Source: Malacoraja senta (lineage: Eukaryota). From it: a stretch of 64,000 nucleotides of DNA. The stretch is taken from the NCBI GenBank assembly GCA_038087875.1, contig CM075996.1:3598001-3662000 (forward strand), read 5' to 3'. Numbering within the stretch: the stretch's first letter is position 1; each line of letters starts with the position of its first letter. Below, piece by piece: positions 4,604-63,841 of this stretch. The notes under the pieces were generated by a model. That model ran no database searches. It was not told where the DNA came from and saw only the letters and a program-made list of their open reading frames with translations. The position numbers were made by a program, and so were the translations under genes.

Positions 4604-5859
4604 CTGGAGTAACTCCAAATGCTGGAGTAACTCAGCGGGACAGGCAGCATCACTGGGTCGGGTCGAGATGGGTCTGAAGTAGGGTCTCGACCCAAAACGT
4701 CACCCATCCCTTCCCTCCAGAGACGCTGCCTGTCCCGCAGAGTTACTCCAGCATTTTGTGTCCATCTTCGGTGTAAAGCAGCATCTGTGCAGTTCCTTCC
4801 TACACGTCTCCTTTGGGTGGAGCTGGGTTTGAATCTGTCTCCGTAGACAGCAGTTGACATCCTCCTCTCTGACAGGACATTTTATTAGATGTTATTCTTC
4901 CGCCGGTTGGTATGGATTTTTTAGTCCAGGGCGCTCTGAGGTAAATGTCTCTTCCTCTGCAGGATTTTTGATTTGAAATGTGCTTGGGACTGCTATCTTG
5001 GATTGAAGTGAGGCTTGAATGTCGGGAGATTTTGAGAAGCGTTCCTAATTTGTAAAGGTCAGTGAATGTGAGTCGACAGTGCAAAGCTGTTCATAATTGG
5101 GGACAAATTGGCAGTTGTCCAGACTCTGAGCGGCCGGGGAAATGGAGGTGATGGATGGTTAGTTTTGATGGGCAGATATTGCCGCTAACGAAGAATCCAC
5201 TTGAGGCAGAGTCTCAGCACACCGACTCTTTAAATCCACCGGATTTTTGGTGAGGGACTAGCGGGAGTATTGGATTAGGCCGGGTCCAGTAGCTCTGTGG
5301 CTATGTTACTGGATCAGACACCTAGTTATGTGGTCTAATGATCCAGGACAAAAATTCAAATCTCCCCGTGATGGGAATTCAAATTAAATTAAGCGATTCA
5401 GAATGAAATCTAATATCATTAAAAGTGTCAGAATTTCTGGAGAAACCTCGCAGTTTATCTCCCATCAGGAAGCCAATCTACAGTGCGTACCTGATCTGGC
5501 CGATACAGTGTTGTAAACGGTCCAGTGAGCATTGCAAAGGGGCATTAGGGTTGGCTGTGAATTCCTTCCTTTGCAGGCATGCCCTCTTCCCAAGGAGAAG
5601 TAATTTCTTACAAGTACAGAATGGTTGCAACATAAAAGACCATTTGCTCCACTGAGTACATGCTGGTTCTAAGCCAGGGCAATGCAGCCAGTCTCATCCC
5701 ACCACCCTCTACCCTCAGTCCTTAACCTTTGGTTATTCATCCAACTCAAGGCAGCCCAGTGGTGCAGCAGGTAGAGCTGCTGCCTCACAACGTCAGAGGA
5801 CCTGGGTTTGATCGTGATCTCGCGTGCAGTCTGCGTGGAGTTTGCACGTTCTCCCTGTG

Positions 5860-6110
5860 AGTCTGAAGAAGGGGTCTCGCCCCGAACTGCCGCCCATTCC
5901 TTCTCTCCAAAGATGCTGCCTGTCTGAAGACTTCAGTCTGAAGAAGGGTTTCGGCCCGAAACGTTGCCTATTTCCTTCGCTCCATAGACGCTGCTGCACC
6001 CGCTGAGTTTCTCCAGCATTTTTGTCTACCTTCGATTTTCCAGCATCTGCAGTTCCTTCTTAAACATGCTTCCTGTCCTGCTGAGTTACCCCAGCATTTT
6101 GTGTCTATCT
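5860..6110. mobile_element. Penelope pLTR-derived pieces with hammerhead-like motif, inserted in a V-SINE
   Basis: CTGAAGAAGGGTTTCGGCCCGAAACGTTG at 5938-5966, then the recurring CAGCATCTGCAGTTCCTTCTTAAAC end; splits a + strand V-SINE (about 5750-6325). Confidence 0.7.
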
Positions 6111-15620: not shown

Positions 15621-17204
15621 AGGAGACTGAGCCGAGAGTCTTCGGTTTGCTACAGTCAGGAATCCTTGGTGTGTGGGATGTACCAGACACTCAGCTAGCA
15701 TCAGTGGAACAAGAAGCAGCTGATGTTCTGACGAAGCGTCTCAGACCTGAAATTTTAATTATGTCTCCTTCCACAGATGCTGCCTGACCTGCTGAGTGTT
15801 TTTGCGACATTTTCTGTTCTTCATTATCTGAGGGGAACTTGCCCTGTTTATTGCTAGCTTGAAGTGAGGATCAACTTGACCTAAATTCGTGACACCTCAG
15901 TCACGGTCTCCATCTATTAATTATGCCCTGTGGTTCATTCTATTGATTCCCAGTTGTCACCTCATTTATTCTACTATTGTGTTCTAACTACTTACCTTGC
16001 AATTTTGACCTCTGCAATGGAATGATGTGAAAAGAGTCAGAATCATTGTCATCTTGTACAAGCGCTGAGATGTCCAATATTAACTTAGTCATAAAGTACA
16101 AGGCAGAGGTCATGGACAATTTATTAGTTGCTGTTTGACACAAGCTCTTGAATATTACAATATAGGAATAATTAATCAGTGTAAATATTTATACAGCAAA
16201 AAAACAGGAGCATTTGCCGCTTTTCCCTTGTTGCTCTTTATTTCATCTTTCATAATGTCCGCACTTCTTTTAGCAGCTTTAATTACCTTCCATGATGTCT
16301 GTGGCCGTGTCGATATTATTTTCTTGAGCTTGCTTCGTGATGCATTCAGCAATAAATACTCCAGTGTGCTACTCTCTGTGGCCAAGTGTAGCTGTCTAAT
16401 AGAGCAATAATTAAGGGGAAGTCAGTGATCATATTTTAAGTATTTCTCTTGCCTTGTGTTCTGAAGGAATCATACCCATTCATTGTGTAATCATAGTTAT
16501 TAATATTCATGGGCATTATCATCCATTTACCAGAACTGAATACCATATGTCACTAATTTGCTCAGGCACAAATTTAAAAATACATTTGAAGGTTGTTCAA
16601 TGCCTTGTCTTTCCGTCCATTCATTATTATCGGCACTCTGCTTAAAAATCAGCTCTCAAGGTCATTAATAAACTTTGTGAATAGCGAGCGCTGTTGGCCT
16701 GATCCCTGCAGATTCACCAGCCACCGTTCCCCGGTGCCAATAATTACCACTGATCACTCCCTGCTCTTTTTTATTGGGAAGCCAATTTTCTGTCCGAATG
16801 GTGATTTCTTTCCTTTCTACCGCGAGCATTAATTTTCAACATGCCTTTTGTGAGGATGCAGAAAACCCCGTATTAGAGTCAAAATGCGTCATATCGACAA
16901 TGTTATCATCATCCTTTCATGTAGCCACTTCTATTCCAGGCATGACTTTCACTCCCTTCAACCATGTTCGATTTCCTTCTTTTATCTTTAGTCGTTGTTC
17001 AGCCCTTCTCACCTCCCACTCCAAGCCACTGGGACTGGTCATTGCTTCTTGGAATGCAGACAAATCTCTAGTGTTGCTGTTCAAGACAGACAGGAGAAAA
17101 TAAACCCAGAACCCTAACTCAGTCTTCCAGATGCTGGTGTGTGGGAAATTGCTAAGCCGTTTACAAAGGACACTACAAAAGCATAGTGTGTTTAGGCAAA
17201 GGGG

Positions 17205-17375
17205 ATAGACACAAAATGCTGGAGTAACTCAGCGGAACAGGCAGCATCTCTGGAGAGGAGGAATGGGTGACGTTTTGGGTCGAGACCCTTCTACAGACCC
17301 GAAACGTCGACCGTTCCTTCTCTCCAGCGATACTGCCTGTCCCACTGAGTTATTCCAGCATTTTGTGTCTATCTG
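17205..17375. mobile_element. Penelope pLTR-derived fold-back element
   Basis: Inverted arms ATAGACACAAAATGCTGGAGTAACTCAGC... / ...CTGAGTTATTCCAGCATTTTGTGTCTAT. Confidence 0.7.
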
Positions 17376-18127
17376 TGCCAGCTAATCCCATGCTGCAAGG
17401 AGTCTAGGTGCAACAAGGAATCTCAATATTCCAGTGATAGAAAGTCATCAATTTCTGCCTTGGTCACCACGGTGAGGCTTGTGTAGGGCCAAAATTTGTG
17501 TGGTGTAACAAATATGACATAGGCTAACATGAGTTTGGACACATAGAAAGGCTATTTTCAGGTTAGCAGTTTGTAACTAGAGGGGTGCCAGAGAGAAGAG
17601 TGTTGGGCCTCACAAATGCTCAATCCTCGGCACTGAATTACACAAAGGAGCCAATGCAACCCATCCAAGTTATTTCTCCAATGACACAAAGGTTGTGGTT
17701 CTGGTTGATTACTGCGCAAACACCTCATCAGTGGTTATCCCGCGCAGGTCGGAGTGAGTAGAGTAGCGATTAAATTTTGAAGTGGGCCTTTTTGACCAAG
17801 TTGAGGAGATCCAGGTTCTCAATCCCCTTTTTAAATAACTTAACATCGGGAGCAGTACGCGTGTTCTAAGGTGAATAAAGGGGGCTCTGAAGGCAGTGGA
17901 CAAGACAGAGGAAGATGGAATGTAATCTAAGAAAATGTGAGGTTGCTCACTTTACCATGAAGAAATTAAAACACGATAGTTTTTAAGCAGATAACAATAA
18001 CTTACCGAATCATTAACTTACCGAATCACAAAGTTTCTATGCAGGCACAATGAGCGATTAGAAAGCAAGAGATACCATAAGACTTAGGAGTAGAATTAAG
18101 CCATTCAGCCCATCAAATCTGCTCTGC

Positions 18128-18403: not shown

Positions 18404-19249
18404 GTCAGTCGATCATGGTTGATCTGTTTTTCCCTCTCAACCCCATTCTCCTGCCTTCTCCCTGTAACCTTTGACACCCTTACTAATATCTGTGCAATGC
18501 GAATGGCTCGATTGTAATCACGTACTGTCTTTCCGCTGGCTGGTCAGCAGGCAGCAACAGCTTTTCACGGTACCCGTGATAATGAACCAAACTTATACCA
18601 AAGTGAAATACCCAATGTCTTGGCCTCCTCAGCCACCTGTGGCGATGAATTACACGGATATACCACCCACTGCCTAAAGACGTTTCTCCTGTTTATATCA
18701 CACCATTCCCTTTATTGCAAGCAGTCTGTAGTACAACAGTAAGGAGGTTTTGCAAGGACATTGCGTAAGGCTTTAGTGAGATCACACCTGGATATTGGAC
18801 ATTTTTCTGGCCTCCTTATCTCCAGAGAAATACACATATCTCGGAGATAATGCAATAATGGATTACTAGAAAAATTCATGGGAAGGCAACCTTGTGCAAA
18901 AGGTTGCAATGAATGATCTTTACCTTCTGGAGTTCAGAGAAATGAGAGGCGACCTTATTGAAATATAAAATATTCTGAAGGGGGCTCGGCAGGAGTGGTT
19001 AAGTGGTTGTTAGTGTTAGCAGGTATGGTCTCATTATGGAGAGTGAAGGTTAAAAGGGATTTCTTCATCCAGAGGATTCGGAATCGTTTACTCAGAGAAC
19101 CAGGATGCTTAGTCAATGAATAAATTGAAGGTGGATAGACACAATGATACAGCATGGAAATCTGCCCTTCGGCCCACTGACTCTGTGCCAGCCAGCGATC
19201 TCCGCACATTAACACTACCTTACACACACACGGGCCAATTTTTACATTT

Positions 19250-19500
19250 GTGTTTAAGAAGGAACTGCAGATGCTGGAAAATTGAAGGTGGGCAAAAGTG
19301 CTGGAGAAACTCAGCGGGTGCAGCAGCATCTATGGAACGAAGGAGATAGGTAACGTTTCGGGCCGAAACCCTTCTTCAGACATGTGTCTCCAGTGATCTT
19401 CAGTGTCTGAAGAAGGGTTTCAGCCCGAAACGTTGCTTAGTTCCTTCGCTCCATAGATGCTGCCGCACCCGCTGAGTTTCTCCAGCACTTTTGTCTACCT
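19250..19500. mobile_element. Penelope-derived fold-back insertion with two opposed hammerhead-like motifs, inside a V-SINE
   Basis: 15-bp TSD CCAATTTTTACATTT (19235-19249 and 19501-19515); motifs at 19352-19379 (-) and 19407-19435 (+). Confidence 0.8.
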
Positions 19501-20244
19501 CCAATTTTTACATTTATACCATGCCAATTTGTGGAGTGTGGGAGGTAACCAAAGCTCTCGGAGAAAACCCACGCAGGTCACAGGGAGATCGTACAAACTC
19601 CGTACAGACATGCACCCGTAGTCAGGATCCAACCCGGGTCCCTGACGCTGTGAGGCATTAGCTCTACCGCTGCGCCACCGTGCCGCCCAATGTAGGAGGA
19701 AACACGAGCACCTGGTGGAAACCCACGCAGTCACAGCGAGAACGTACAAACTCCACACAGGCAGGTCAGGATTGAACAAGGAGTTGTGGGGCAGTAGCTC
19801 TACTGGCTATTTAATACAACCAATTGTGCAGATACAGAGGATGAGCTGGCTAAAGTAGATTGAGAAATTAGATTAAAGGATTTGTCACATAAGCTGTGTT
19901 AAATATTTAACTGCTGCACCACCGTACCACTCAAATATAAATATAAATACAAATAGAAGCAGTTATTTATATGCAGCTATTTTATTTGCAAGGCATTAAC
20001 TGATTTGGATGGCTCAATCTTCTTTTAGTTGGCCCATAATCTTTGGTGAAGCCTTCTTGGTAATTAACAGTGGATTTCTTTGTAGTGGATTCTGTTGGTT
20101 TTTTATATTTCTCTATGGCTGATGTGTGGGAGAACAGTTCAGTGATACCGGAGACTTTTGTTCTCGTAATTAGGTGCCACATTTGCAAAGCCAGCCAGGT
20201 CTACAAGATCTCACCCTGGTGCCAACAGATGGAGCTTCACTGCT

Positions 20245-23135: not shown

Positions 23136-23469
23136 ACTTGGCATCCCCTCTCTCATTCTCCCCCGCGCCCCACTTTCTCTCTCCCTGCCCCATTTGCTGC
23201 ATTTCTCAGTCGACAGTTTATTGCCACAGTCTGGCTGTTCATCTCCAAACCTTTGACCCTCGTCCAGTGAACCCGAAAATAAATGCATGACTGCTCACAA
23301 TAACTCCCAATCGCAGAGGCTCAAAATGTGTGTCCTGTCTCCTGCTGAAATACAGCAGCCTTTAAAATGGAGCACTTAACATCGCCAACTCTGCGTCCAA
23401 GTGCTCACTGCAGCCTTGCATAGCCGTGCCTTGCCTTTTTATTCTTACAAAAATAGCATACCCGACAAA

Positions 23470-23857
23470 ACCTACCTGATCTCCCGGTTGATGAACGCTA
23501 TAACTCCCCCTCCCATTCCCACACTGACCTTTCTCTCCTGGGCCTCCTCCACTGTCAGAGTGAGGCCCAGCGCAAACTGGAGGAAAAGCACCTCATAATT
23601 CGCTTGTTTAAGAAGGAACTGCAGATGCTGGAAAATCGAAGGTAGACAAAAGTGCTGGAGAAACTCAGCGGGTGAGGCAGCGTCTATGGAGCGAAGGAAA
23701 TAGGCAACGTTTCGGGCCGAAACGTTGCCTATTTCCTTCGCTCCATAGATGCTGCCGCACCCGCTGAGTTTCACCAGCACTATTGTCTACCTTCATAATT
23801 CGCCTGGGCAGCTTACACCCCAGCGGTATGAATATTGACTTCTCGAACTTCAAGTAA
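23470..23857 (+). mobile_element. Penelope-like element remnant (C-terminus of GIY-YIG endonuclease), split by a fold-back insertion
   Basis: Reads DLPVDERYNSPSHSHTDLSLLGLLHCQSEAQRKLEEKHLIIR | LGSLHPSGMNIDFSNFK*; insert 23604-23792 has 11-bp TSD TCATAATTCGC. Confidence 0.8.
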
Positions 23858-24434: not shown

Positions 24435-25049
24435 GTTTCTCCCCTTTCCCAGTTCTCCGACCAGTCTGACTGTCTTCTGTTTGCTTTGTTGTCACCTTCT
24501 CCGAGCTAACAATGATCGATTCTACATTTTCCTTGAACTGTATCTCTTTAGATCCCCCTACACTTCCTTCTCTCTGTATCTCCCTCTCCCCTGGCGCTCA
24601 GTCTGAAGAACGGTCTCGACCGGAAATGTCAGCCATTCCTTCGATCCAGAGATGCTGCCTGAGTTACTCCAGCATTATGTGTCTATATTTGGTGTAAACC
24701 AGCATCTGCAGTTCCTTCCTCCACAAAAGGTTGTGTACAATCCAAATGCACACAATTTAAAAACCTAAGGGAGAATTTGCATTTATTACTACTATCTCTT
24801 CTACCTCCACTAAATTCAGTTTGAGGAAAAGTCCCGACCCAAAACGTCCATGTCTAATATCCTCCAGAGATGCTGCCTGACCTGCTGAGTTACTCCAGCA
24901 CTCTAGGTCTTATTCAAGATTCTCTAATCCAGAGCTCTTTATCTCTCAGCAAGACTAAATCCTCTCACTGGGAGCAATGTGTTGTGAAAGATTAGTCACT
25001 GAGTTACAATCACACAGACTGTTGTGACAGTGCAGTGTGTTTGACCCAT

Positions 25050-26024: not shown

Positions 26025-26135
26025 GACCACACTGACCTCTCTGTCCTTGGCCTCCTCCACTGTCAGAGTGAGGCCCCGCGCAAATTGGAGGAACAGCTCC
26101 TCATATCTCGCTTGGGCAGCTTACAACGCAGCGGT
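26025..26135 (+). mobile_element. Short Penelope GIY-YIG remnant
   Basis: HTDLSVLGLLHCQSEAPRKLEEQLLISRLGSLQRSG. Confidence 0.7.
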
Positions 26136-26420
26136 GCTGAACTACTTTCTACCTCATTGGAGACCCTCGGGCTATCTTTCATCGGACTTTACTGGCTTTA
26201 TCTTGTACTAAAGGTTATTTCCTTTATCGAGTATCCATACACTGCGAATGGCTCGATTGCAATTATGTATTGTCTTTCCGCTGACTGGTTAGCACGCAAC
26301 AAAAGCTTTTCACTGTACCTCGGTACACGTGACAATAAACTAAACTGAATTGGGGAGAAGTGAAGGATGGGAGTTCTGGAGTGGTTCTGAGGACAGCCCT
26401 GTGAGTTGAGTCAAGGTGTT

Positions 26421-27003: not shown

Positions 27004-27579
27004 GATTAAGTGGGAGCTGAGAGCTCTGCTCCATCCACGTGCGCTGTTGGCTGCTCTTGGTGACGTCTGGCAGGCAGGCTGGGGTGAGAGTTCTTCACCT
27101 CCGCGACTCTCTGTGCCCAGGTAGCGGCAGAGTAATGAAGTGACAAGCTGTCCTCTATTAGCTCTAATCGGCTTGATCACGCGCTATAATTTTATTACCG
27201 AGCTCCCTGCTCTCTGACCAGCTGTCAGTGAGTGGATTTATCTGCGAGGCAGAGGGGAGGCGATTGTTGTCATCAGCCTCCCGCGTTCACCTTGTTGGCC
27301 ACCTCTCCACTGGCAAGACCCTTCATCCAAATTGGATCCCTTCCACTCCGTTCATTTTGCTCAAGTTGGGAACCGCTCACAACCCAAACATGGTGTGGCA
27401 TGGGTCCCTTTAGCAGGAACCAGGAGGCCTGCAACAACATGGGACATTACAGCACAGGAACAGAACCTTCGGCCCACAATGTCATGTTCAAACGTGATAG
27501 CAGCAGAATTAGGCCATTCGGCCCATCATCTCTACTCCGCCATTCAATCATGGCTGATCTACCTCGATATGGTGGCCGA

Positions 27580-28328
27580 TTAGGAAAAGGGGAGATGCAA
27601 CGAGACCTGGGTGTCATGGTACACCAGTCATTGAAAGCAGGCATGCAGGTGCAGCAGGCAGTGAAGAAAGCGAATGGTATGTTAGCATTCATAGCAAAAG
27701 GATTTGAGTATAGGAGCAGGGAGGTTCTACTGCAGTTGTACAGGGTCTTGGTGAGACTACACCTGGAGTATTGCGTACAGTTTTGGTCTCCAAATCTGAG
27801 GAAAGACATTCTTGCCATAGAGGGAGTACAGAGAAGGTTCACCAGACTGATTCCTGGGATGTCAGGACTTTCATATGAAGAAAGACTGGATAGACTCGGC
27901 TTGTACTCGCTAGAATTTAGAAGATTGAGGGGGGATCTTATAGAAACGTACAAAATTCTTAAGGGGTTGGACAGGCTAGATGCAGGAAGATTGTTCCCGA
28001 TGTTGGGGAAGTCCAGAACAAGGGGTCACAGTTTAAGGATAAAGGGGAAATATTTTAGGACCGAGATGAGAAAAACATTTTTCACACAGAGAGTGGTGAA
28101 TCTGTGGAATTCTCTGCCACAGAGGGTAGTTGAGGCCAGTTCATTGGCTATATTTAAGAGGGAGTTAGATGTGGCCCTTGTGGTTAAAAAGATCAGGGGG
28201 TATGGAGAGAAGGCAGGTACAGGATACTGAGTTGGATGATCAGCTATGATCATATTGAATGGCGGTGCAGGCTCGAAGGGCCGAATGGCCTACTCCTGCA
28301 CCTATTTTCTATGTTTCTATGTTTCTAT
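27580..28328 (+). mobile_element. CR1 LINE 3' fragment, subfamily C, uninterrupted ORF2 C-terminus
   Basis: QRDLGVMVHQSLK...AVKKANGMLAFI...[11 protein letters not shown]...GYGEKAGTGY* open for over 200 codons; inserted in an older minus-strand CR1 tail. Confidence 0.92.
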
Positions 28329-29911
28329 ATCCCAACCCCGTTCTCCTGCCTTCTCCCCATAACCCCTGACACCCCCCACTAATCAAGACCCTTTCTATCT
28401 CTGCCTTAAAAATATCTATTGATTTGCCTCCACAGCCTTCTGTGGCAATGAATTCTGTGCCAAACATAATACCAAGATAAACTAAACTCATCTGTTTACT
28501 CATGATCCATATCCTTCATTGCCTGCATACCCATGTCCCTAGAAAAAGCCTCTTAAATGCCACTAACGTATTTACCTCCACTGCCACCCCTGGCAACGTG
28601 TTCAAGGCTCTAGGTAAAATAAATATTCCCCACATATCTCCTTTAAACTTTATCCCACTCGTCTTAAAAATATGCTCTCTCGTCTTTGACGTTTCCACCT
28701 TGGTGGGGGAAAGGTTCTGACTGTCTAACCTATCTGTCTGTGCCTTTATACTTTTATCAGGTCTTCCCTTAACCTCTGCCATTCCAGAGCAAACAATCCA
28801 CATTTGTCCAACCTCTCCCTGTAGCTAATTCCCCCTAATCCAGGCAGCATTCTGGTAAACCTCCTCTGCACCCTCTCCTCAGCCTCCACCTGCTTCCTGG
28901 AATGGGGGGCGACCACAGCTGTGTGCAATACTCCAAATGTGGCCCACCCAAAGTCTTATAGAGCCCCATCATGAATTCCTGACTCTCTCACTCAAAGGCG
29001 GCGAGCATACCATACATGTAATCATTTGTCTATCCTTCCTCATCACCGCGCTGGAAATGCCAGAATTTCACGTGGCATGTTTTGGAAGCAGCCTCTTATT
29101 ATCTTGTATTTATTGCATTTCCCGGGAAAATCATCTTATTGAGTAATATTGAGTTTTCCGTCATGTTATATTGTGTTTCTCAGAGCTGCTTGAGAGAATG
29201 TTACATACTAACTAATATGTTATGAATATGTTAAACCTCTCAACTTAGATAGCAGTAGTTGCACCAACAGAACACACTTAACCCTGGGAAGGAAGCTAAT
29301 CATTCTCTGCCTCGAGGAGTAAGACTGGGTTCTTTGACCCCGAAAACTCAATTAAAACCTTCAACGAGATCATTGTTAATCAGTATCTAAATTCCACTTG
29401 TCCACATCTCCTTCCTTAAATCCTTCTTCAACATGAACCCAGTGACATCAAGTCTTGAGGATAGACACAAAATGCAAGCAGTACCTCTGGAGAGAAGGAA
29501 CGGGTGACACTTGGGCTGAAGAAGGGTCTCGACCCGAAACATCACCCATTCCTTCTCTCCAGAAATGGTGCCTGACCCGCTGAGTTACTCCAGCATTTTG
29601 TGTCTATCTTCGGTGTAAATCAGCATCTGCAGTTCCTTCCGAAACATAGTCTTGAATGTTTCCATTGAATCCTGGTGACCTTGGTCTTCGAGGGGAAAGT
29701 TTCTGATTTCCACCCTCCTTTGTGTAAAAAATCACCTCTGAAATGGCTTTGCCTGATTTTACCACCCCTTTATTTCTGAATTTGCTCAATATAGGAGATT
29801 GTTTTGCTACTTCTATCCTATCGAAGCTGTGAAACCCTTTAAATATCCCCTCAATCATCTTATCTCCAGGGAAGGCAAGACAAATGTAGGAAAACCCATC
29901 CTCATAATCTA

Positions 29912-30859: not shown

Positions 30860-31059
30860 NNNNNNNNNNNNNNNNNNNNNNNNNNNNNNNNNNNNNNNNN
30901 NNNNNNNNNNNNNNNNNNNNNNNNNNNNNNNNNNNNNNNNNNNNNNNNNNNNNNNNNNNNNNNNNNNNNNNNNNNNNNNNNNNNNNNNNNNNNNNNNNNN
31001 NNNNNNNNNNNNNNNNNNNNNNNNNNNNNNNNNNNNNNNNNNNNNNNNNNNNNNNNNNN
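30860..31059. other. Assembly gap (200 N)
   Basis: Run of N; true size unknown, contiguity across it not guaranteed. Confidence 0.99.
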
Positions 31060-31708
31060 CGGCTTCAAAATGGTGTAGGCCGCAGGCCGGCGGTCGAAGA
31101 TCTAAAGTCCTAAACTAAATTAAACTACTCTATCGTGGTTCTCAGGCCTCTCCTAGTTTTTGGTGGCCAGAATCGGATATAACGCTACAAGTGGGACACT
31201 GGCTTTTGTACTCTGGCCCCCAATTAATGTTCCAGCGAACATTTTGTTTTTTGGGCTGGTGGCTTAGACCTACACTGTTAATTCAACGTAACATTCAATG
31301 ATAGAAAGACACAGGAGTACCACTGAGCCAAATGGTGCTGCATTAAACATTGTTAGAGCTACGCTGTGGCACCGATCCATCATTGCTGTTTCTCATTCTG
31401 AACATGTCAGGAAGAAGGAACTCTGTAATGAAGGCATATATTATTCTGCTGTCACAAATGCATGGAGTGATTACTGGCGGGCGGCTTTGTGATTATCTTT
31501 AACAGAACATACACCTTATAAGTATCTTTATTGTGATGGATAATGTTTATTTTTGCAACTGATTAATTATGGTTAAATTTGATTAGTCATTTTAGCTAGA
31601 AAAAATTGTCCATCGTTTCATATTTTCTATCTTCCAAACTGATATTGCATTAGAGAGGAGAGGAGTGATGCTTATCATTGCAGTGTCATTTGGACTGTTC
31701 TCAGGGCT

Positions 31709-31764
31709 GTGCGTGTGTGCGTGCTTGTGTGTGTGTGTGTGCGTGCTCGTGTGTGTGTGCGTGC

Positions 31765-31813
<49 letters not shown>

Positions 31814-32103
31814 CTTGTGTGTGTGTGTGCGTGCTTGTGTGTGTGTGTGCGTGCTTGTGTGTGTGTGTGCGTGCTTGTGTGTGTGTGTGCGTGCTTGTGT
31901 GTGTGTGTGCGTGCTTGTGTGTGTGTGCGTGCTCGTGTGTGTGTGTGCGTGCTTGTGTGTGTGTGTGTGTGCTTGTGTGTGTGTGTGCGTGCTTGTGTAT
32001 GTGTGTGTGTGCGTGCTTGTGTGTGTGTGTGTGTGTGCGTGCTTGTGTGTGTGTGTGTGTGTGTGTGCGTGCGCGTGCTTGTGTGTGTGTGTGTGTGCGT
32101 GCT

Positions 32104-32134
<31 letters not shown>

Positions 32135-32165
32135 GTGTGCGCGTGCTTGTGTGTGTGCACGTGCT
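31709..32165. repeat. Compound (GT)n microsatellite punctuated by GCGTGCTT
   Basis: Visible directly in the sequence. Confidence 0.97.
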
Positions 32166-32555
32166 TGAGCGCATGCATATGTGCGTGCATATATATTATA
32201 TATATATGGATATATATGGACTTTATTTCCCGTTTATTATATTGTTTACCGAACACCATGTTTACATATTCTGTTGTGATGCTGCAGGTAAGAATGTCAT
32301 TGTTCTCTCTGGGACACATGACAATAAAACACTCTTGACTATTGGCATATCATCGGATTCTTCCTCAATGTTATCAGAATCTGGAACAGACCACTCTTGT
32401 GCTAGGGGTGAATTACTGATCATCCAATCTACCTCCTTGTGGCCCTTTTACTTTATTTTATTTGCACTTTCTCTGAATAACACTATATTCTGAATTTTAT
32501 TTATGCACCACCTGATGTGGAGTAGTGATCCTTAGCATTGCAGTGTCATTTGGAC

Positions 32556-32790: not shown

Positions 32791-33299
32791 TGTATTTACA
32801 CATACCTACATATATGTGTGACTGTGCCTTTGTTCCTGTAATTGCATGCGTGCTTACGTACATATTAGCATAAATATATGTGTGTGTTCTTTACAATGAT
32901 ATATTCTTCCATGTTTATGCGTGTGTGAGTACGTATGAATAAGGTCTCTTACCATCCAATACAATTAATTTAATTCCATTAGTAAAAGGAAGACAGAGCA
33001 ATGGACAAGAGATAAAGTTGTACTTTGCATTTATTAAGAATGGAAGGTGTTGAGGAAATGCTTGAATTTAATCTTCGAAGCATGAATGAATTGCCTGATG
33101 TTTTTTGGGCAAAATATTTCACTGAGCCCACAGGGAAGGGCTGAATATAACATTTCTGAGCTTCTATCAGAAGCCTGTGTCTATTATGTGTGTTTCAAAT
33201 TTGTGCAATGTATTTTGGAGCTGATACATTGCAAATTTGTATAGTATTCTGCATTTAAAGGTGCCTGCGGTTTTAGGCTACAAATAACGTTATTGTTAA

Positions 33300-33727
33300 A
33301 TTGGAGATAGCTTCGCCAAACACCTCCGCTCAGTTTGCAGTAACCAACCTGATCTCCAGGTGGCTCAGCACCTCAACTCCCCCTCCCATTTCAAATCCGA
33401 CCTTTCTGTCCTGGGCCTCCTCCATTGCCAGAGTGAGTCCCACCGCAAATTGGAGGAGCAGCATCTCATATTCTGCTTGGGTAGTTTACACCCCAGCGGT
33501 ATGAACATTGACTTCCCCAATTTCAGGTAGTCCTTGCTTTCTCCCTCCTTCCCCTCCCCTTCTTAGCACTCCCACAGCCTACTGTCTCAGCCTTTTCCTT
33601 TCTTTTTCCCGCCCCCACCCCCACATCAGTCTGAAGAAGGGTCACGACCTGAAACGTCGCCTATTTCCTTCGCTCCGTAGATGCTGCCTCACCCGCTGAG
33701 TTTCTCCAGCATTTTTGTCTACCTTCA
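33300..33727 (+). mobile_element. Penelope-like element 3' end: GIY-YIG C-terminus, 3' UTR and hammerhead-like motif
   Basis: Frame from 33303: GDSFAKHLRSVCSNQPDLQVAQHLNSPSHFKSDLSVLGLLHCQSESHRKLEEQHLIFCLGSLHPSGMNIDFPNFR* (stop 33528-33530); CTGAAGAAGGGTCACGACCTGAAACGTC at 33631-33658 on the same strand. Confidence 0.85.
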
Positions 33728-33784
33728 TTTGTTAAAGTTATTCTTTGTGAAGTACTCAGCAACAAAATTGTATTACACCTTTTA

Positions 33785-34985: not shown

Positions 34986-35789
34986 AATTGCAGAAGAGGA
35001 GGTGAGACCAGGTGTGTACGAGGCCCAGAGGGGTAGGGTCTTCAGAAATATCAAATGTGTTTCAGTGAGCAAGAGACTGGGTGAAAATTTAGATGAATTT
35101 GACAAGAGACAAGAGAGTTTATTGTCATATGTCCCAGATAGGGCAATGAAATTGTGACTATGTATTGATGTAGATAGACACAAAATGATGGAGTAACTCA
35201 GCGGGACAGGCAGCATCTCTGGCGAGAAGGAATGGGTGACGTTTCTGGTCAACAGCCTTCTTCAGACTGAGAGTCATGGGAGATGGAAACCGGAGATATG
35301 GAATGGTAAGGTGTGAAAAGGACAGATCAAAGCAGATGTTGATTAAGGAAATGTAGAATGGTTCATTGTTAGCTGAGGGGAGGATGATTAGGACGATAAT
35401 TAATCAGGAGGACAGTGAAACTAGCGGGAGAACTAGGGTGGGGTGAGGGATGGAGATGAATGTAATTAGTTAACTGTTGCTGTTAGTTCATGTATCTGGA
35501 AGGCTGATGGTTTGCATTGATATCTTAAAAAGGAAAACTGTACGTATTAGCATTAATGTTCCTTTAAGAATAGAGTGCGCCACATAGTATAATTTTGATA
35601 AATTGTTACAGACGATGCCATTAGTTGAGATTAACTGCCTTCAGTGAAGAATATTGTTGATGGTTCAACCTCTATTTACCCGGTTATGTAAGCAGCAATG
35701 CAGCAAGATTTGCCGCGCTGTTGTTCAGCGCAGTATTGAGGGAGAGCTGCACCGCTGCAGGCATTTTGTTATTACTGCAGGCATATTAT

Positions 35790-36190
35790 GGGCTGTACGG
35801 TGGTGCAGCGGTAGAGCTGCTGCCTTTCAGCGCCAGAGACCCGGGTTCGATCCTGACTACAGGTGCTGTCTTTATGGAGTTTGCACGTTCTCCCCGTGAC
35901 CTGTTTGGGTTTCCTCCCACACTCCAAAGACCTACAGGTTGGTAGTCAGACAAAAGTGCTGGAGAAACTCAGCGGGTGCGGCAGTATCTATGGAGCGAAG
36001 GAAATAGGCGACGTTTCGGGCCGAAACCCTTCTTCAGACTTGTTCCGACAGGTTTGTAGGCTAATTGGTTTGGTTAAATTGTAAATTATCCCTAGTGTGT
36101 GTCGGACAGCGTTAATGTGCAGTGATCGCTGGTCGGCGTGGACTCAATGGGCCAAAGGGCCTGCTTCCGTGCTGTATCTCTAATCTATAC
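35790..36190 (+). mobile_element. V-SINE with Penelope pLTR insertion (about 35945-36040)
   Basis: SINE head and tail split by a sequence with an intact minus-strand CTGAAGAAGGGTTTCGGCCCGAAACGTC (36010-36037). Confidence 0.8.
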
Positions 36191-37031
36191 TAAACTCGAG
36201 GATTTTCTGTGTACGAAGGAACTGCAGATGCTGGTTTACAACAAAGATAGTCACAAAAAGCTGGAGTAACTCAGCAGGACAGGCAGCATCTCTTTCAGAT
36301 TCACGGACAGCTTCTTCCCTGCTGCTACCAGCCAACTGAACCATCCTACCACAACCAGAGAGCAGCCCTGAAGTACTATCTACCTCATTAGTCACGCTCG
36401 GACTATCTTTGGTTGGACGTCACTTACTTTTTATGGTCATTTTTAGAGTTTTTTTCATCAAACATTATTCCCTCATCATGTATCTGTATATTGTGAATGG
36501 CTCGATTGTAATCATGTATTGTCTTTCTGCTGACTGGTTAGCACGCAACAAAAGTTCTTCACTGTACCTCAGTACACGTGGCAATAAAGTCAAACTGAAA
36601 CTGAACTAAAAAAGGAATAGTTGACGTTTCGGGTCGGGACCCATCTTCAGACGGCATGAGCGATACGATCGCCCAGTCTGAGCTTGGTCTCTCCGATATA
36701 TAGGAGAATTTTCTCGTTGGTTAAAGGTCTTCTATGCATGCACGCATGCATGCAGAAGCATCCTGACTTGTGCAGTAGCACCAATAATGTTCAGTGCATG
36801 TTTTAATGGTCCATCTGGCCAAGTCAATTGTGTATGCAGGTACAATTGCATGCACAAGCAAGTGAAGGTTGCTTCGGAGTAATTCCAACTATATCCTCCT
36901 GGTCTCTTTGAGGCCATTGAATCTGGTGCATATAATCCCCTGATGAGTGGGCCCTTTAGGTTTTATAGCTGCACAGCAGTTCCAGCAGCATCTGTGGAGA
37001 TAAAACCGAGTTAATAAGTTTTAAAGAAATC

Positions 37032-37332: not shown

Positions 37333-38062
37333 ATGTTAACTCTATGTTTCTTTCCACAGATGCTGCCTGTCCTGCTGAGTGTTTCCAGCTTTTACTGCGT
37401 TTATTACAGATTATATTCAATATCTTCCCCATAACCAAATTCATCTTTTGCATGATACCTTAGCAAAGGACACTTGCTTTTAAATCTTTTTTAGCATGGA
37501 ATACATCTACAGAAAGGGGTGAAAATAATCTACTGCTCAGGCAGCATCTGTGGGGGAGAACTGTGGGATTTCAGGTCAATGGTACTGTAACTAAAGATGT
37601 TAATCCATAGGAACTTCCACAGCCACCAATGCTGATTCTCTGGATTCTCCGCTCTCTCCCCTTTCACCTACATTGGCCAGAGAATTTCACTACACCAATT
37701 GGTGTATGTGGCAATAAATGAACTTATAAACTTAAAAAACCTATTCCTTCCTCTGGCTTCACAATTTGCAACTCTTCTATCCTTATCCCACACTTTACTC
37801 TTTTCATATCTGGCTTTGTCCAACCTTCTGGCCTGTATCCACCTATCACTTTGTCCTTCCCCTCCTCTCTTCCACCTTTCTTCCAACCCACCGCCACGAT
37901 AAATCTGAAGAAGGGTCCCGACCCAAAACGCCACCTAACCATGTTCTCCAGAGATGCTGCCCGACGCACTGAGTTACTCCAACGCTTTATGTCTTTTTTT
38001 TGTTAAACCAGCATCTGCAGTTCTTTGTTACCACTCTGATCCTGCTCCCATCTCAGTGTTTA

Positions 38063-38700: not shown

Positions 38701-38737
38701 TTAAGGTTGTACTTGTTTATTGCAGGGAATAAATTCA
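38701..38737 (+). other. Splice acceptor and 12-nt 5' UTR part of the grin2 exon
   Basis: T-rich tract GTTGTACTTGTTTATTGCAG (AG at 38724-38725) directly before GGAATAAATTCA-ATG; implies an upstream non-coding exon. Confidence 0.7.
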
Positions 38738-39145
38738 ATGAAGATGAGGCACATGGGCTTGCATCTTCTGAAGGTTTTATTCATTCTCGTGTCTCATGTG
38801 GTTTGGGCGAAAGGAATCTTGAAGAGCAAATCCACCCTGAACATAGCCGTGATCCTCGGTGGCACGTCCTGCGAGATGGACGTCAAAGACGTTTTGAACA
38901 AAGATGACTTCCAACATTTGTCCATCGATCCCAACGTGGTGCAGGTCTCGGTCAACGAGACCGACCCCAAGAGCATCATAACACGCGTGTGCGACCTTAT
39001 GTCCGGGATGAAGATGCACGGCGTGGTCTTTGGCGACGACACCGATCACGAATCCATTGCAGAAATTTTGGATTTTATTTCCGCTCAGACTATGATCCCA
39101 ATCCTTGGAATACACGGCGGCTCCTCGATGATAATGGCAGACAAG
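38738..39145 (+). CDS. grin2b: First coding exon (signal peptide + start of amino-terminal domain, 136 codons) of NMDA receptor subunit GluN2, best match GluN2B
   Basis: Translation [25 protein letters not shown]...[24 protein letters not shown]...[17 protein letters not shown]...[37 protein letters not shown] aligns without gaps to human GluN2B I37-K137 as recalled. Acceptor TTGCAG ends at 38725; donor AAG|GTAGGA at 39146, the same phase-0 intron after MIMADK as in mammalian GRIN2A/B. No later exon was recognised in the window. Confidence 0.9.
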
Positions 39146-39416
39146 GTAGGAGCTGGCTTTCGCTCTGTTCATGTGGTGGTTGCTTAGTTAGCGCTGGATG
39201 CTTTAACTATTGGTATCCATCTATGGAGCCGATGTAACGTACTGTATGTTAGATATGACCAAAGATCCCTTTACTTACTGTAACGGAGTTCTTCCCTCAG
39301 CTCCCCTGATCTCTAATTTTGCTCTGTTGCAAATTGTTTGGCTCCAGTAGTTCGGCACCAGAGGAAGCTATAGCAGCAGATGCAATTATGACACTAAAAA
39401 GACTTTTGGACATATA

Positions 39417-40570: not shown

Positions 40571-41257
40571 AGGGCCTGTCCCAATTACGTGTCCTTGGCA
40601 CGCTAATTACGCAACATCGTGGTCGCGTTGAGGCGCGACGTTCCCACGAAGGTCGCGCGCGACTTCATTCGACCGCACAGTCGTCTGGAGCGCATGACGT
40701 CATCTGAAGATAGACACAAAATGCAGGAGTAACTCAGTGGGACCGGCAGCATCTCTGGAGAGAAGGAACGGGTGATGTTTCGTGTCGAGACTCTTCTTCA
40801 GTCTGAAAGAAGGGTCTTGACCCGAAACGTCACCCATTTCTTCTCTCCAGAGATGCTGCCGGTCCCGCTGAGTTACTCCTGCATTTTGTGTCTATCTCCA
40901 ATTTTCTTGGCCCCTGCTCTGGGAGTAGAAGTGGGGGCGGCTCCGGACCGCTACGGCCGTGAGCCCCCCCCACCCCCCAGATCATTTGCCTGCTTCTGCT
41001 GCTGTTGGAGGTGAGATGTTGCGTCGCGCCAGGTTCTTGGGCCTGTCCCACTTTGGCCGTCAGTTCCACGACAGGCCGTTGGCGCGCGAAGATTTTGTTC
41101 GCTACAAAAATTTCGGAGCCCCGCGCGATGTCGCGCACAACTACATACACCTCCGCGCTTCTCAGTGGGACTGGCCCCATAGGATGCCCGTGCGCCTCAA
41201 CACGACCACGAGGTCGCGTAATTTGCATGCCAAGGACACGTAAGTGGGACAGGCCCT
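40571..41257. mobile_element. PIF/Harbinger-type MITE inside a V-SINE head, itself carrying a Penelope fold-back insertion (about 40706-40898)
   Basis: TIR AGGGCCTGTCCCA / TGGGACAGGCCCT, TAA on both sides, about 70-bp imperfect inverted arms. Confidence 0.82.
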
Positions 41258-42035: not shown

Positions 42036-42749
42036 ACTATTGTCCTGTGGCAGTAAAACCTGGGTTGTCAGAAGCAGCACATGCCCCTATGATTGGCCTT
42101 CCTCTTTCAGTCGTCATGGTCGCTTGGTTGAGTTTACTGTCAGGTGTACCGAGGTACAGTGAAAAGCTTTTGTTGTGTGCTAACCAGTCAGCGGAAAGAC
42201 AATACACGATTACAATCGAGCCGTCCACAGTGTGCAGATGCGTAGGACGAAACTGCAGACGCTGGTTTAAACCGAAGATAGACACAAAATGCTGGAGTAA
42301 CTCAGCAGGACAGGCAGCATCTCTGGAGAGAAGGAATGGGTGACGTTTCGGGTCGAGACCCTTCTTCAGGCAGTGTGCAGATACATGATAAAGGGAATGA
42401 CGTTTAGTGCAAGGTAAAGTCCGATTAGAGATAGTCTGAGGTCTAATGAGGGAGATAATAGTTCACAACTGCTCTCTAGTTGTTGGTAGGATGGTTTGTT
42501 TATTGTCAGGTGTACCGAGGTACAGTGAAAAGCTTTTGTCGCATGCTAACCAGTCCGTGGAAAGACAATACATGATTACTCCACACATGCCCATGATGTT
42601 GGTGGAGTAATCGTGTTCCTTGCCTCCAGTAATCATGCTACCTTAAGGTGGGAACAACGGTGACCTGGTAACACCTCTTCCCATAGAATGGTATAGAAGT
42701 GTGAAAACGCACACACCTCCAGATTCAGGGACAGTTTCTTCCCAGCATT

Positions 42750-48300: not shown

Positions 48301-48490
48301 AAAGGTAGAGTAGGCCAATTGGCTTGGTACAATTGTAAATTGTGCCCAGTGTGTGTAGGATAGTGTAAGTGTGCAAGGATTGCTGGTCGGCGCGGACTCG
48401 GGGGCCGACTGACTGTATGTAAGTAAAATAAAATAGTATTAGTGTAAATGGATATTTGATGGTTGGCGTGGATTCAATGCGCTGAGGGGC

Positions 48491-51338: not shown

Positions 51339-51998
51339 TGGGATGGAGGGTCTATTTCTGAATGTATGACTCTGACTCGAAGAAAGGTCGGGAAGGTTTG
51401 ACCTGTAATCATCAGCGTACAAAACATGGGAAGTGATTTTATTGAAACAAGCAAGATTCTGAGGGACACAAAGTGCTGGAGTAACTCAGCAGGTCAGGCA
51501 GCATCTCTGGAGAACGTGGACTGGTGATGTTTTGGGTCGGGACCCTTCTTCAGACAACCTACCCGAAATGTCACCTATCCATGTCCTACAGAGATGCTGC
51601 CTGAAGTGCTAAGTTACTCCAGCACTTTGTATCTTTTTTGTTGTTGTAAAATAGCAGTTCATTGTTGCCAGGATTCTGAGTAGGTGTCGAGAGGATGTTT
51701 GACGTGATGGAGGAAAATACAGAATTATTGGGGCTTAACCTTTGAATAAAAGGGTCACCCTTTTCCTGATGAAGATAGTGAGAGATCTCTTCTCTCAGGG
51801 TTGTGAATCAACGGATTCTCTTCCCCAGAGAGCTGTGGGATATATTCAAGGCAGGAATTGAAATCCATTAATATTGACGCATGAAGATGCATGGTATGGA
51901 GGGATAGGGTGCACCTGGGGGGAGGATTGGTCTAAGCAGGTATTATGTTCAGAACAGATATCGTGTGCCAGTGGACCTCTTCCTGTGCTGTACAATTC

Positions 51999-56367: not shown

Positions 56368-56851
56368 TAGGGGTGGGGAACCTTTTCATGTTGGAATGCC
56401 GCATTAAGTTAGCTGTAATCTAACAAGGCCGCATCCAAGAAACTTCAATTAGATACACTTCAAAATGTACATTATTTTGTTAAAATCGCCCTCATGACTT
56501 ACTAGTGTTTTAATTGTGGCCGTTAGTCGGGGAGGATTATTTCATTGAATCTTCTTTGACTCTTTGTTATTTTAAATACGTTCATTTTAAGATTAAAATA
56601 AAAAGAATAAAAGATGAACAAAAACATATTAATAAAAATAAAAGGTAGACAAAAATGCTGGAGAAACTCAGCGGGTGAGGCAGCATCTATGGAGCGGAGC
56701 TAATAGGCGACGTTTCGGGTCGAGACCCTTCTTCAGATCTGCATCTGCAGTTCCTTCTTAAATAAAAATAAAAAGATTTATTCTATAAAATTAGGATTCG
56801 TTCAAAAGGGCCGCACTTAATGGCCTTAAGGCCGCAGGTTCCCCACCCCTG
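56368..56851. mobile_element. Non-autonomous hAT (Charlie-like), second copy, opposite orientation to 13903
   Basis: TIR (T)AGGGGTGGGGAACC / GGTTCCCCACCCCTG; 8-bp TSD CACTAAAC; contains a Penelope pLTR insertion 56645-56760 with TSD AATAAAAATAAAAG. Confidence 0.9.
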
Positions 56852-58087: not shown

Positions 58088-58305
58088 AGACAAAAATGTT
58101 GGAGAAACTCAGCGGGTGAGGCAGGATCTATGGAGCGAAGGAAATAGGCGACGTTTCGGGACCCGAAACGTCGCCTATTTCCTTCGCTCCATAGAGACCC
58201 AAAACGTCGCCTATTTCCTTCCCTCCATAGATGCTGCCTCACCCGCTGAGTTTCTCCAGCATTTTTGTCTACCTTCGATTTTCCAGCATCTGCAGTTCCT
58301 TCTTA
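58088..58305. mobile_element. Penelope-derived fold-back insertion
   Basis: 13-bp TSD AACTAAAATGGGT (58075-58087, 58306-58318); symmetry centre GACGTTTCGGGACCCGAAACGTC. Confidence 0.8.
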
Positions 58306-62457: not shown

Positions 62458-63841
62458 TAAAGCACAGCTTCTTACAAGTTGTTAGCAAACTCTTGAAATC
62501 TCCTCTTCTATGCTAGGGAAGAATTCCTGATCTTGCAATATATCCTATTGCAGCTCTTGCACTATTTAGAATCTGCACGTTTTCTGCAGTCTGTTTATTT
62601 TCTCTTTTGCATTGCCTGATGCACTCGTGCATGATGTGATTTGCCTGGATCGCAACAGAAAACAAAGTCCTTTCACATATCTCAATACCTGTGACAATAA
62701 TAAACCAATGCCAATACCAATAGAGCCATCCATTCCAAACAATGATCTATTCTACACTTTCCTTGATCTCTATTCCCTTTGCCTTGTTTTCACACCTTAT
62801 ACTTCCTTATCTATCTATCTCCCTCCCCCCTGATCAGTCTGAAGAAGGGACTCAACCCGAAACATCACCCATTCCTTCTCTCCAGAGATGCTGCCTGTCC
62901 CGCTGGCATTTTGTGTCTATCTGTGTTCACCCTTTCCAAACCTCTCATTCTGCCTCAGGTTTACGCGGTGCTAAGGATCTTCCCTCAGTAGTTGGGTATG
63001 AAGGCCTGGTCTCTTATCCTTTATGTGATTCAATTCCAACAAACGAATGGAGGAGCTTGACTTGCGTGAATCCCACGGTTCTATTTCTGAACGTCTACCA
63101 GTTGCTCTCATGTATGGTGTCCCATGTAGTGCCATGCAGTGCCACCTACAGGTTGTCCATGCCTTTATCTTGCCTGTGGCCAGATTCAATGTTGCACAAA
63201 GAGGATCTCCTTAGACTGGTCCCACAGGAGCCAGAGTCGCCAATGACTTTAAATAAGTCCTGGCTCTCTGTTCCTGGACTTGTGGGAGAACTGGGAAGGG
63301 GGAGGGGAAGGAGGGAGAAAGCACGGGCTACCTAAAACGAGGCTTTGGATGGACATTTAAATAGGCAAGATACGGTTCTGATGTGGGCAAATGGGACGGC
63401 ATGGATGTTCTGGGCTGAAGGGCCTGTTTCTCTTTGACTACTTCCTACGGAACCCACCGTTTAATCTCCTGATCTTTCTCTTATCCTGATCCCAACCTTG
63501 CCCCCTCTAACCCCAATTCCTGACCTTCCAATCCTTGCCCTTTGATGCTGACAATCCTACTCCTTCAACCTACTGTTTCAATCCCCTCTGAACCTGTACT
63601 TCCTGCCACCCAACCCCTCGATCTATCGTTCCAGCCTCCTTGACCTTGTACTTTGACCCACGATCGCGATCCCACCTTCTTGACCAGCATATTGTGGTCT
63701 CCACCGATCACTGTTCCTGCATTTCTGTCCTTGGGGGAGTAGCCCGGCACCACCACTCCCTCCAACTCCGGCTCTGCTTCCACCACATGATGGAATGAAT
63801 TGTCAGGCAACCACACCACCCTACCACAACCTGAACTACTA

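What the first reader, a model, noticed from the sequence alone, without database searches (positions are those of the whole stretch)
19235..19515. Small mobile fold-back elements carrying a minimal hammerhead-ribozyme core (Penelope-derived)
Seen: a 100-250 bp repeat recurs more than 20 times, often as an inverted pair. Several copies are discrete insertions with long TSDs: 15 bp here, 11 bp at 23593/23793, 14 bp at 56631/56761, 13 bp at 58075/58306. Many contain CUGAAGA-A-[stem II]-GAAA-CG-U(C/U): the hammerhead core CUGAnGA...GAAA, a hairpin stem II and a palindromic ACGU in place of stem III. Intact cores lie at 5938(+), 19352(-), 36010(-), 42342(-), 56709(-). Established: Penelope-like elements carry such minimal type I hammerheads, which cleave as dimers. 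Inference: this genome hosts a prolific ORF-less, hammerhead-bearing Penelope derivative, putting candidate self-cleavage sites on both strands around a grin2 gene. Caveat: stem I is only about 2 bp in most copies, so activity is uncertain.
Basis: partly seen in the sequence, partly recalled or inferred. Interest (0 to 1): 0.75.

Follow-up and report, generated by a model that had tools for sequence, protein, structure and literature searches.

The report
Hammerhead-bearing stubs of Penelope retrotransposons
These short, often hairpin-shaped repeats are real, but they look like the dead end-pieces that a known kind of jumping gene (a Penelope-like element, which normally carries a small self-cutting RNA motif) leaves when it inserts, not a new self-copying element.

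Summary
In detail: 46 repeat hits (0 in a reversed-sequence control), four long target-site duplications (TSDs) as stated, and 8 intact minimal hammerhead cores among 25. The repeat is the 3' end of an endonuclease-bearing, Neptune-type Penelope-like element (PLE). At 33300-33727 it directly follows a GIY-YIG C-terminus and a UTR, and UTR-linked copies are scattered among short copies in three subfamilies. The ten fold-backs have ten different central junctions, so they were probably made afresh at each insertion. All six with a TSD have one arm ending at a short site and one at a 35-nt 'tail', the published PLE signature. An independent ORF-less family is not supported, and cleavage around grin2 is unlikely: fold-backs bury the core in a -172 to -181 kcal/mol duplex with one core per strand, stem I is 0-2 bp, and core CpGs decay. 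One feature I did not find in print: 19 of 25 arms reaching the core stop within -5..+1 of it. This suggests a fixed RNA 5' end or a reverse-transcription stop there. Verdict: new member of a known kind; interest 0.22.

The parts
19235..19249 (+). Left target-site duplication, 15 bp
   Evidence: empty-site form in 14 other copies of the host repeat
19250..19381 (-). Left arm: PLE 3' end from position -2 (C3 of CUGA = +1) to the long 'tail' end (+129); tail about 19250-19284
19352..19379 (-). Minimal hammerhead core, intact, 2-bp stem I, predicted cut after GUU at 19352
19382..19404 (.). 23-nt filler between the arms, containing a short inverted piece of the core start
19405..19500 (+). Right arm: position -2 to the short end (about +95), no tail
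19407..19434 (+).
19501..19515 (+). Right target-site duplication
33300..33727 (+). 5'-truncated PLE copy linking the repeat to its parent: GIY-YIG C-terminus (33300-33530), pyrimidine-rich UTR, hammerhead (33631-33658), short end; possible 10-bp TSD with 1 mismatch (33285/33733; 11 of 200 null intervals score as high)
23460..23857 (+). PLE GIY-YIG C-terminal fragment interrupted by the fold-back at 23604-23792 (TSD 23593/23793; arms joined in the stem II palindrome; long + short arm)
24450..24722 (+). UTR-linked copy, subfamily B, long end, core broken at the stem III CpG
35171..35460 (-). UTR-linked copy, subfamily B, short end, stem II broken
37740..38032 (+). UTR-linked copy, subfamily C, long end, core broken
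62720..62925 (+). UTR-linked copy, subfamily B, core broken
5925..6065 (+). Solo subfamily A stub with intact core (5938) and long end, nested with a 12-bp TSD (1 mismatch) inside an older subfamily B stub (5860-6107, 11-bp TSD)
35946..36047 (-). Solo stub, intact core (C3 36037), short end, 12-bp TSD with 1 mismatch
36610..36706 (-). Short GIY-YIG piece (36706-36659) joined almost directly to an intact core (C3 36650)
42240..42370 (-). Solo stub, intact core but no stem I, long end, 12-bp TSD
56644..56760 (.). Fold-back: minus arm with intact core (C3 56736) and short end; plus arm is the last ~22 nt of the tail only; 13-bp TSD
58088..58305 (.). Fold-back joined in stem II with an internal partial duplication; short + long arm; 13-bp TSD; no complete core
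29459..29647 (.). Fold-back, short + long arm, 8-bp TSD (weak on its own)
51462..51668 (.). Fold-back, subfamily C, short + long arm, 12-bp TSD with 1 mismatch
40704..40898 (.). Fold-back joined at the palindrome around the core start; both arms short; no TSD found
17204..17376 (.). Fold-back, both arms short, no TSD found
4612..4804 (.). Fold-back, short + long arm, no TSD found
38705..39184 (+). Open frame holding the first coding exon of a grin2 gene (best match GluN2B); context, not part of the element

Best explanation
The repeats are insertion products of autonomous, endonuclease-positive Penelope-like elements (Neptune type) that were active in at least three successive subfamilies in a cartilaginous fish, probably a skate or ray. 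Shown: the unit is the PLE's 3' end; it has two 3' ends about 35 nt apart; 5' ends cluster at the hammerhead's 5' border and secondarily in stem II; fold-back junctions are all different. Inferred mechanism: the GIY-YIG endonuclease makes a staggered cut 8-15 bp apart. Each freed 3' end primes reverse transcription at one of two internal start sites (short site about +95, tail end about +129). With one productive primer a solo stub results; with two, one on each strand, the cDNAs stop early and are joined through palindromic microhomology or short filler, giving a head-to-head fold-back with a tail on one side only. The hammerhead is a passenger inherited from the parent's terminal repeat, where it may work as a dimer or with the PLE protein. 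In the stubs it decays and is unlikely to cut host RNA.
For: 33303-33527 is 72-74% identical to Leucoraja erinacea gene-model pieces carrying a GIY-YIG C-terminus (their Pfam GIY-YIG scores are below the cut-off, E 0.001-0.008) and aligns to the C-terminus of RT + GIY-YIG proteins with a cysteine-rich linker; that linker marks Neptune/Nematis (PMC8557442). Five tblastn matches to this protein family at four places in the window. Runs of two related organisms give depth across ORF end, UTR and hammerhead, and contigs spanning ORF to UTR and UTR to hammerhead. UTR-linked copies fall in subfamilies A, B and C. 3' ends of 36 strong hits: 20 at profile 88-100, 14 at 123-129, 0 at 101-122, 2 interrupted. 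6 of 6 fold-backs with a TSD have one long and one short arm; 10 of 10 junctions differ. The same architecture is in print: inverted 5'-truncated copy plus a 30-40 bp tail at one end (PMC8557442; PMC3846280, with 8-10 bp TSDs and palindromes at the junction); two internal RT start sites bounding the tail and cleavage and extension of both strands in vitro (PMC11167929); minimal hammerheads mostly as single motifs or in opposite-strand pairs 100-700 bp apart (PMC4209133).
Against: The 5' ends are far more uniform than random truncation predicts (19 of 25 within -5..+1; binomial 3e-23 at my rough 3.5% expectation), which a short master RNA would also explain. Subfamily A2 (6 arms) has no UTR-linked member in the window. 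The tree is weak: 2 of 30 inner branches starred, 17 open. No full-length parent was seen, since no genome is held. Two fold-backs (17204, 40704) have two short arms and no TSD. Long ends coincide with the end of my profile, so only TSD-flanked cases fix them. The two-primer step is inferred from an in vitro study of a different clade (Poseidon).
Confidence: 0.82

Rival explanations
1. A short non-autonomous master (about 100-130 nt, starting at the hammerhead) is transcribed on its own and copied in trans by the PLE protein, SINE- or retrozyme-like. Fold-backs still form at insertion.
For: Sharp 5' boundary at the core in 19 of 25 arms. Depth rises 13x, 10.5x, 22x and 5x at 33626 in the four runs, and several listed joints return to 33627-33629, including head-to-tail joins from the short end in 1-5 contigs per run. 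Solo stubs with TSDs exist. Non-autonomous PLE derivatives are in print.
Against: Short and UTR-linked copies share subfamily marks in A1, B and C, so three parallel derivatives would be needed. ORF-end depth is 0.22-0.40 of hammerhead depth in the raw reads, like the 5-6 of 25 longer copies in the window. Part of the depth step can come from UTR divergence between subfamilies. No tandem array of whole units in the window.
Confidence: 0.12
2. The fold-back itself is the mobile unit (a MITE-like or hairpin-RNA retroposon) that copies as a whole.
For: Discrete insertions with 8-15 bp TSDs; very stable hairpin (z about -22).
Against: 10 of 10 junctions differ; ends are asymmetric and match PLE RT start sites; TSD length varies.
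Confidence: 0.03
3. Some cores have been kept by the host to cut or regulate grin2 transcripts.
For: 8 intact cores near a grin2 exon. Non-CpG core positions differ less from their consensus than other positions (7 of 219 vs 103 of 1827), though 'other' includes unresolved subfamily variation.
Against: Core CpGs decay as fast as others (11 of 73 vs 9 of 86). Stem II probability is 0.00-0.14 and stem I about 0 in predicted monomer folds of 7 intact copies. No intact sense-strand core lies downstream of the exon; arms there are 7 plus and 7 minus. Intact plus-strand cores are 13-14 kb apart; the closest same-strand pair (36037, 36650) is antisense.
Confidence: 0.03

Closest known systems
Insertion units of canonical EN+ Penelope-like elements: pLTR, adjacent inverted 5'-truncated copy, one-sided 30-40 bp tail (PMC8557442; PMC3846280)
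   Same: Head-to-head inverted arms, palindromes at the junction, tail on one arm, TSD of about 8-15 bp, C-terminal GIY-YIG upstream.
   Different: Here most units are only 100-270 bp with no ORF, cover 6% of the window, and most 5' ends sit at the hammerhead's 5' border.
Minimal type I hammerheads (min-HHR) of metazoan PLEs (PMC4209133)
   Same: Core boxes, unpaired base between positions 9 and 10.1, G10.1-C11.1, palindromic 15.2-16.2, mostly single motifs, some on opposite strands.
   Different: Stem II is 4 bp (7-8 in the Schistosoma families) and stem I 2 bp (4-5 there; 2 in D. virilis Penelope).
Poseidon of Anolis carolinensis, PAc (PMC11167929)
   Same: Two 3' ends bounding a tail about 100-130 nt downstream of the hammerhead; both target strands used.
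   Different: Different clade. In PAc the ORF starts in stem II; here no start codon lies in the core and the subfamilies do not share a frame. PAc cleavage was shown, with protein; nothing is tested here.
Non-LTR retrozymes of animals (PMC7229834; bioRxiv 2026.07.22.740005)
   Same: Short, ORF-less, type I hammerhead, PLE-related.
   Different: Retrozymes are head-to-tail tandem repeats; these are solo or inverted units with PLE RT-start ends.

Membership tests
EN+ Penelope-like element (Neptune type) | C-terminal GIY-YIG endonuclease directly upstream of the terminal repeat | tested here: met
   33300-33727 contiguous. The window piece itself has no Pfam GIY-YIG hit because it lacks the motif-bearing part; the assignment is through homologues.
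EN+ Penelope-like element (Neptune type) | PLE-type RT in the same ORF as the endonuclease | tested here: inconclusive
   Present in homologues P0126, P0127, P0129-P0131; no PLE RT piece in the window; no genome.
EN+ Penelope-like element (Neptune type) | Cysteine-rich linker between RT and EN (Neptune/Nematis) | tested here: inconclusive
   Seen in the closest homologues P0002, P0126, P0128; the window copies are truncated 3' of it. No RT tree with named references was built, so Neptune versus Nematis rests on recalled host range.
EN+ Penelope-like element (Neptune type) | Inverted 5'-truncated copy and one-sided 30-40 bp tail, with TSD | tested here: met
   6 of 6 TSD-flanked fold-backs.
EN+ Penelope-like element (Neptune type) | Direct pLTRs flanking a full ORF | not testable with these tools
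   No full-length copy in the window; no genome held.
Minimal type I hammerhead of PLEs | CUGAnGA / GAAA / UH core with extra base before stem II and palindromic stem III | tested here: met
   8 of 25 copies intact; consensus of subfamilies A1, A2 and B intact, C carries G12>A.
Minimal type I hammerhead of PLEs | Stems supported by covariation; core more conserved than flanks | tested here: inconclusive
   Between subfamily consensuses stem II changes fall in the loop or keep the pair (U-A / U.G), position 17 is C or U, position 1.1 is A or G; all are one-sided. Core 1 of 13 vs rest 19 of 68, p=0.17.
Minimal type I hammerhead of PLEs | Self-cleavage as a dimer or with protein | not testable with these tools
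   Needs an in vitro assay. Predicted dimer with stems II and III lies 4-16 kcal/mol above the best two-strand fold in 7 copies.
Non-LTR retrozyme | Head-to-tail tandem units, each with a complete hammerhead | tested here: not met
   None in the window. Rare head-to-tail joints occur in contigs of related organisms.
MITE-like fold-back family | Copies share one internal structure and symmetric termini | tested here: not met
   10 different junctions in 10; asymmetric ends.

The most novel reading that the evidence does not exclude
The parent's template RNA has a fixed 5' end or block at the first base of hammerhead stem I (a transcription start, or a splice acceptor after the pyrimidine tract as in D. 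virilis Penelope). The PLE protein primes internally at two sites 95 and 129 nt downstream, one on each cut strand, and runs off. The stubs would then be a very large genomic record of two-site twin priming in a Neptune element, and the source of abundant ~100-bp perfect hairpins in skate introns.
Probability: 0.3. Interest if true: 0.45.

Novelty: new member of a known kind. Interest (0 to 1): 0.22.

Why it matters
Mostly ordinary: hammerheads in PLE ends, inverted truncated copies and one-sided tails are in print, and earlier notes of this scan report the same in other cartilaginous-fish windows. What remains of use is mechanistic. The PLE integration cycle is unresolved, and young stubs with clean TSDs record both priming sites, the cut spacing and a sharp 5' stop. 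A genome-wide tally could test twin priming and locate the template's 5' end. At 6% of this window, the hairpins may also be a notable source of double-stranded RNA (not tested).

Tried and rejected
No genome is held for the window, so no genome-wide survey. Rfam found no hammerhead; its miRNA and snoRNA hits on the fold-backs are below the gathering score and reflect long hairpins. A core pattern scan and a PLE protein scan of metagenome contigs found nothing. The search with P0001 returned LINE RTs: P0001 is a chimeric gene model, so those 1070 hits were not used. No run is listed as a sure RNA holder; this says nothing about expression. One raw RNA run (X23, about 1 in 100 read, organism B, not shown to be the window's species) gave 35,514 reads, no pile-up of ends at the predicted cut, and a 5-8:1 strand bias over the hammerhead whose direction I cannot assign; fragmented single-cell cDNA could not show cleavage anyway. 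Cleavage-defined 5' ends rejected: no arm starts at +29; the nearest start at about +26 and +33. A splice from the stop codon to the acceptor-like site before the core was considered; no such joint is among the 15 of 200 joints shown, and the arms share no upstream exon; inconclusive. A conserved reading frame through the unit rejected: subfamilies A and B differ by indels. The paper on dimer cleavage of PLE hammerheads (PMC5785218) is not held; only its title was seen. Supplements of PMC11167929 held as text had no match; its figures S1-S2, which may show 5' ends of copies, were not visible. Supplements of the bioRxiv preprint are closed.

Full report
Setting. The window is animal DNA rich in LINE and SINE pieces, with a grin2 first coding exon at 38705-39184 (+), closest to GluN2B. 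The closest named homologues of its Penelope protein pieces are from Leucoraja erinacea and Stegostoma tigrinum, so it is a cartilaginous fish, probably a skate or ray (inference). No genome is held.

Observation. The element at 19235-19515 is as described: 15-bp TSD, two inverted arms, a 23-nt filler. It interrupts a SINE-like repeat whose uninterrupted form occurs at 14 other loci in the window. The three other TSDs are real, and a search over 23 elements found further ones of 11-12 bp at 5850/6108, 5913/6066, 35934/36048, 42228/42371 and 51452/51669, and weaker ones of 8-10 bp at 29451 and 33285; 12 of the 23 had none above 6 bp. A profile of the unit finds 46 hits against 0 in the reversed window, covering 6.0% of the window. 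Of 25 arms that reach the CUGA start, 8 keep an intact core.

What the unit is. At 33300-33727 the C-terminus of a GIY-YIG endonuclease, its stop codon, about 100 nt of pyrimidine-rich UTR, the hammerhead and the short end follow one another. The peptide is 72-74% identical to skate gene-model pieces and aligns with the C-terminus of RT + GIY-YIG proteins that have a cysteine-rich linker, the mark of Neptune and Nematis PLEs (PMC8557442, passages). The Stegostoma protein P0126 reads on through its UTR and ends in SLMKGLRPKRQ, which resembles the window's hammerhead translated (LKKGLDPKRH); so the motif probably follows the ORF in a shark too (inference from peptide only). More endonuclease pieces lie at 23460-23854, 26031-26162 and 36706-36659. 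Laying runs of two related organisms on 33290-33760 at 80% identity gave about 10,000-120,000 laid records per run, with depth over ORF end, UTR and hammerhead, and the tail as the loose end behind the short site.

Ends. With C3 of CUGA as +1, the 3' ends of 36 strong hits are 20 at 88-100 and 14 at 123-129, none between, and 2 interrupted. This is the PLE 'tail', shown in PAc to lie between two internal RT start sites (PMC11167929, parts 1-2 of 4). All 6 fold-backs with a TSD have one long and one short arm, as described for PLEs. Of the other four, one is short + long, two are short + short and one is partly deleted. For 5' ends, my hand tally of 42 arms (46 hits less four weak or continuing pieces) is: 19 at -5..+1, 6 continuing into UTR (one of them, 24821, uncertain), 7 in stem II, 10 further 3'. 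The most common start is -2, the first base of the 2-bp stem I. The laid runs show a 5- to 22-fold depth step at the same place and joints returning to it, though UTR divergence adds to the step.

Unit of mobility. Ten fold-backs have ten different junctions: overlap in the stem II palindrome, overlap at the palindrome around the core start, or fillers of a few to 23 nt. The five clearly UTR-linked copies need five changes on the tree (shuffled mean 4.8) and fall in subfamilies A, B and C (weak support; 33 of 46 hits used, those with E<=1e-9 and at least 60 profile positions). So the stubs track the autonomous subfamilies and look like products made at each insertion. A short master RNA copied in trans is not excluded (0.12).

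Ribozyme. The motif fits the published min-HHR (PMC4209133, parts 1-2 of 4), where single motifs did not cleave and dimers cleaved weakly; the PAc hammerhead needed protein and was not needed for insertion in vitro; 8 of 9 Xenopus dimers did not cleave (bioRxiv 2026.07.22.740005, parts 1-3 of 5). Differences between subfamily consensuses are compatible with the fold but one-sided, and core conservation is not significant (p=0.17; the single core change is at a CpG in the oldest-looking subfamily). After insertion, core CpGs decay (11 of 73). The fold-back at 19250-19500 forms a -181 (plus) or -172 (minus) kcal/mol hairpin that pairs both cores away. An inverted pair puts one core on each strand, so it cannot supply a cis dimer. 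In 7 intact copies folded alone, stem II has probability 0.00-0.14; such predictions ignore protein help. Cleavage of grin2 RNA is therefore unlikely, and 19235 lies 19.5 kb upstream of the coding exon, with unknown relation to the transcript.

Mechanism, shown and inferred. Shown from sequence: PLE origin, two 3' ends, TSDs of 8-15 bp, unique junctions, 5' clustering. From the literature on other PLEs: double-strand cutting and two internal RT starts. Inferred: priming from both cut strands at the two sites and joining by microhomology or filler. Open: the cause of the 5' stop. Candidates are a transcription start at the initiator-like sequence just before the core (consensus recalled, not tested), a splice acceptor after the pyrimidine tract (in D. 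virilis the intron ends at the 5' end of helix I; intron 46 nt below the start site, PMC2377424, passages), or an RT stall. Arkhipova et al. explain junction palindromes by self-priming on an antisense template; my data do not exclude that.

Novelty. The architecture and the ribozyme are known; this is a skate-type example. I did not find the 5' clustering at the hammerhead border in the listings or passages, but Arkhipova 2006, Evgen'ev and Arkhipova 2005, the dimer-cleavage paper and Repbase entries were not available, so it may be in print. Other papers seen as passages only: PMC3846280, PMC8969392, PMC6765202, PMC7229834. Earlier notes of this scan on other cartilaginous-fish windows reach the same verdict; they are unchecked AI notes and not independent support.

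Verdict. Real feature; new member of a known kind; interest 0.22.

Noticed in passing
window 2463-2525 (-): HDV-like ribozyme match to Rfam CPEB3_ribozyme, 37 bits against a gathering score of 35, E 3e-6. P1, P2 and P3 can be read, P4 is nearly absent, and the first base is U instead of the G of the model's cleavage-site wobble, so it may be decayed. Single copy in the window. Probably the 5' end of a LINE-type element (not shown).
   Followed up: partly
window 23593-23803 and 5925-6065: Two stubs inserted into older pieces of the same PLE family (its endonuclease ORF; an older stub), hinting at a preference for its own sequence, as reported for PAc.
   Followed up: partly
window 23604-23792: The two arms of one fold-back differ at a position that separates subfamilies A1 and A2, as if copied from two different RNAs; one case only.
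   Followed up: no
window 40704-40898: Both arms share two private changes (starred pair in the tree): one template for both arms, or gene conversion between them.
   Followed up: no
window 33526-33630 and 23855 onward: A GT follows the last codons at the ORF's stop in two copies, and a pyrimidine tract with CAG ends at the hammerhead: an intron-like UTR. No spliced joint among those shown.
   Followed up: partly
window 19141-19690 and about 25 other loci: Abundant SINE-like repeat that hosts several stubs (HE1-type label recalled, not tested).
   Followed up: no
window 27232-28230, 39502-40092, 42884-43723, 45173-46297, 52975-53829, 48486-48875: LINE fragments of several types; 45173-46297 has RVT_1.
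   Followed up: no
window 30860-31059 and 31590-32350: A 200-base assembly gap and a long GT-rich microsatellite array.
   Followed up: no
P0001, P0002: Two annotated skate proteins are chimeric gene models ending in a PLE endonuclease piece; mis-annotation or exonised PLE.
   Followed up: no
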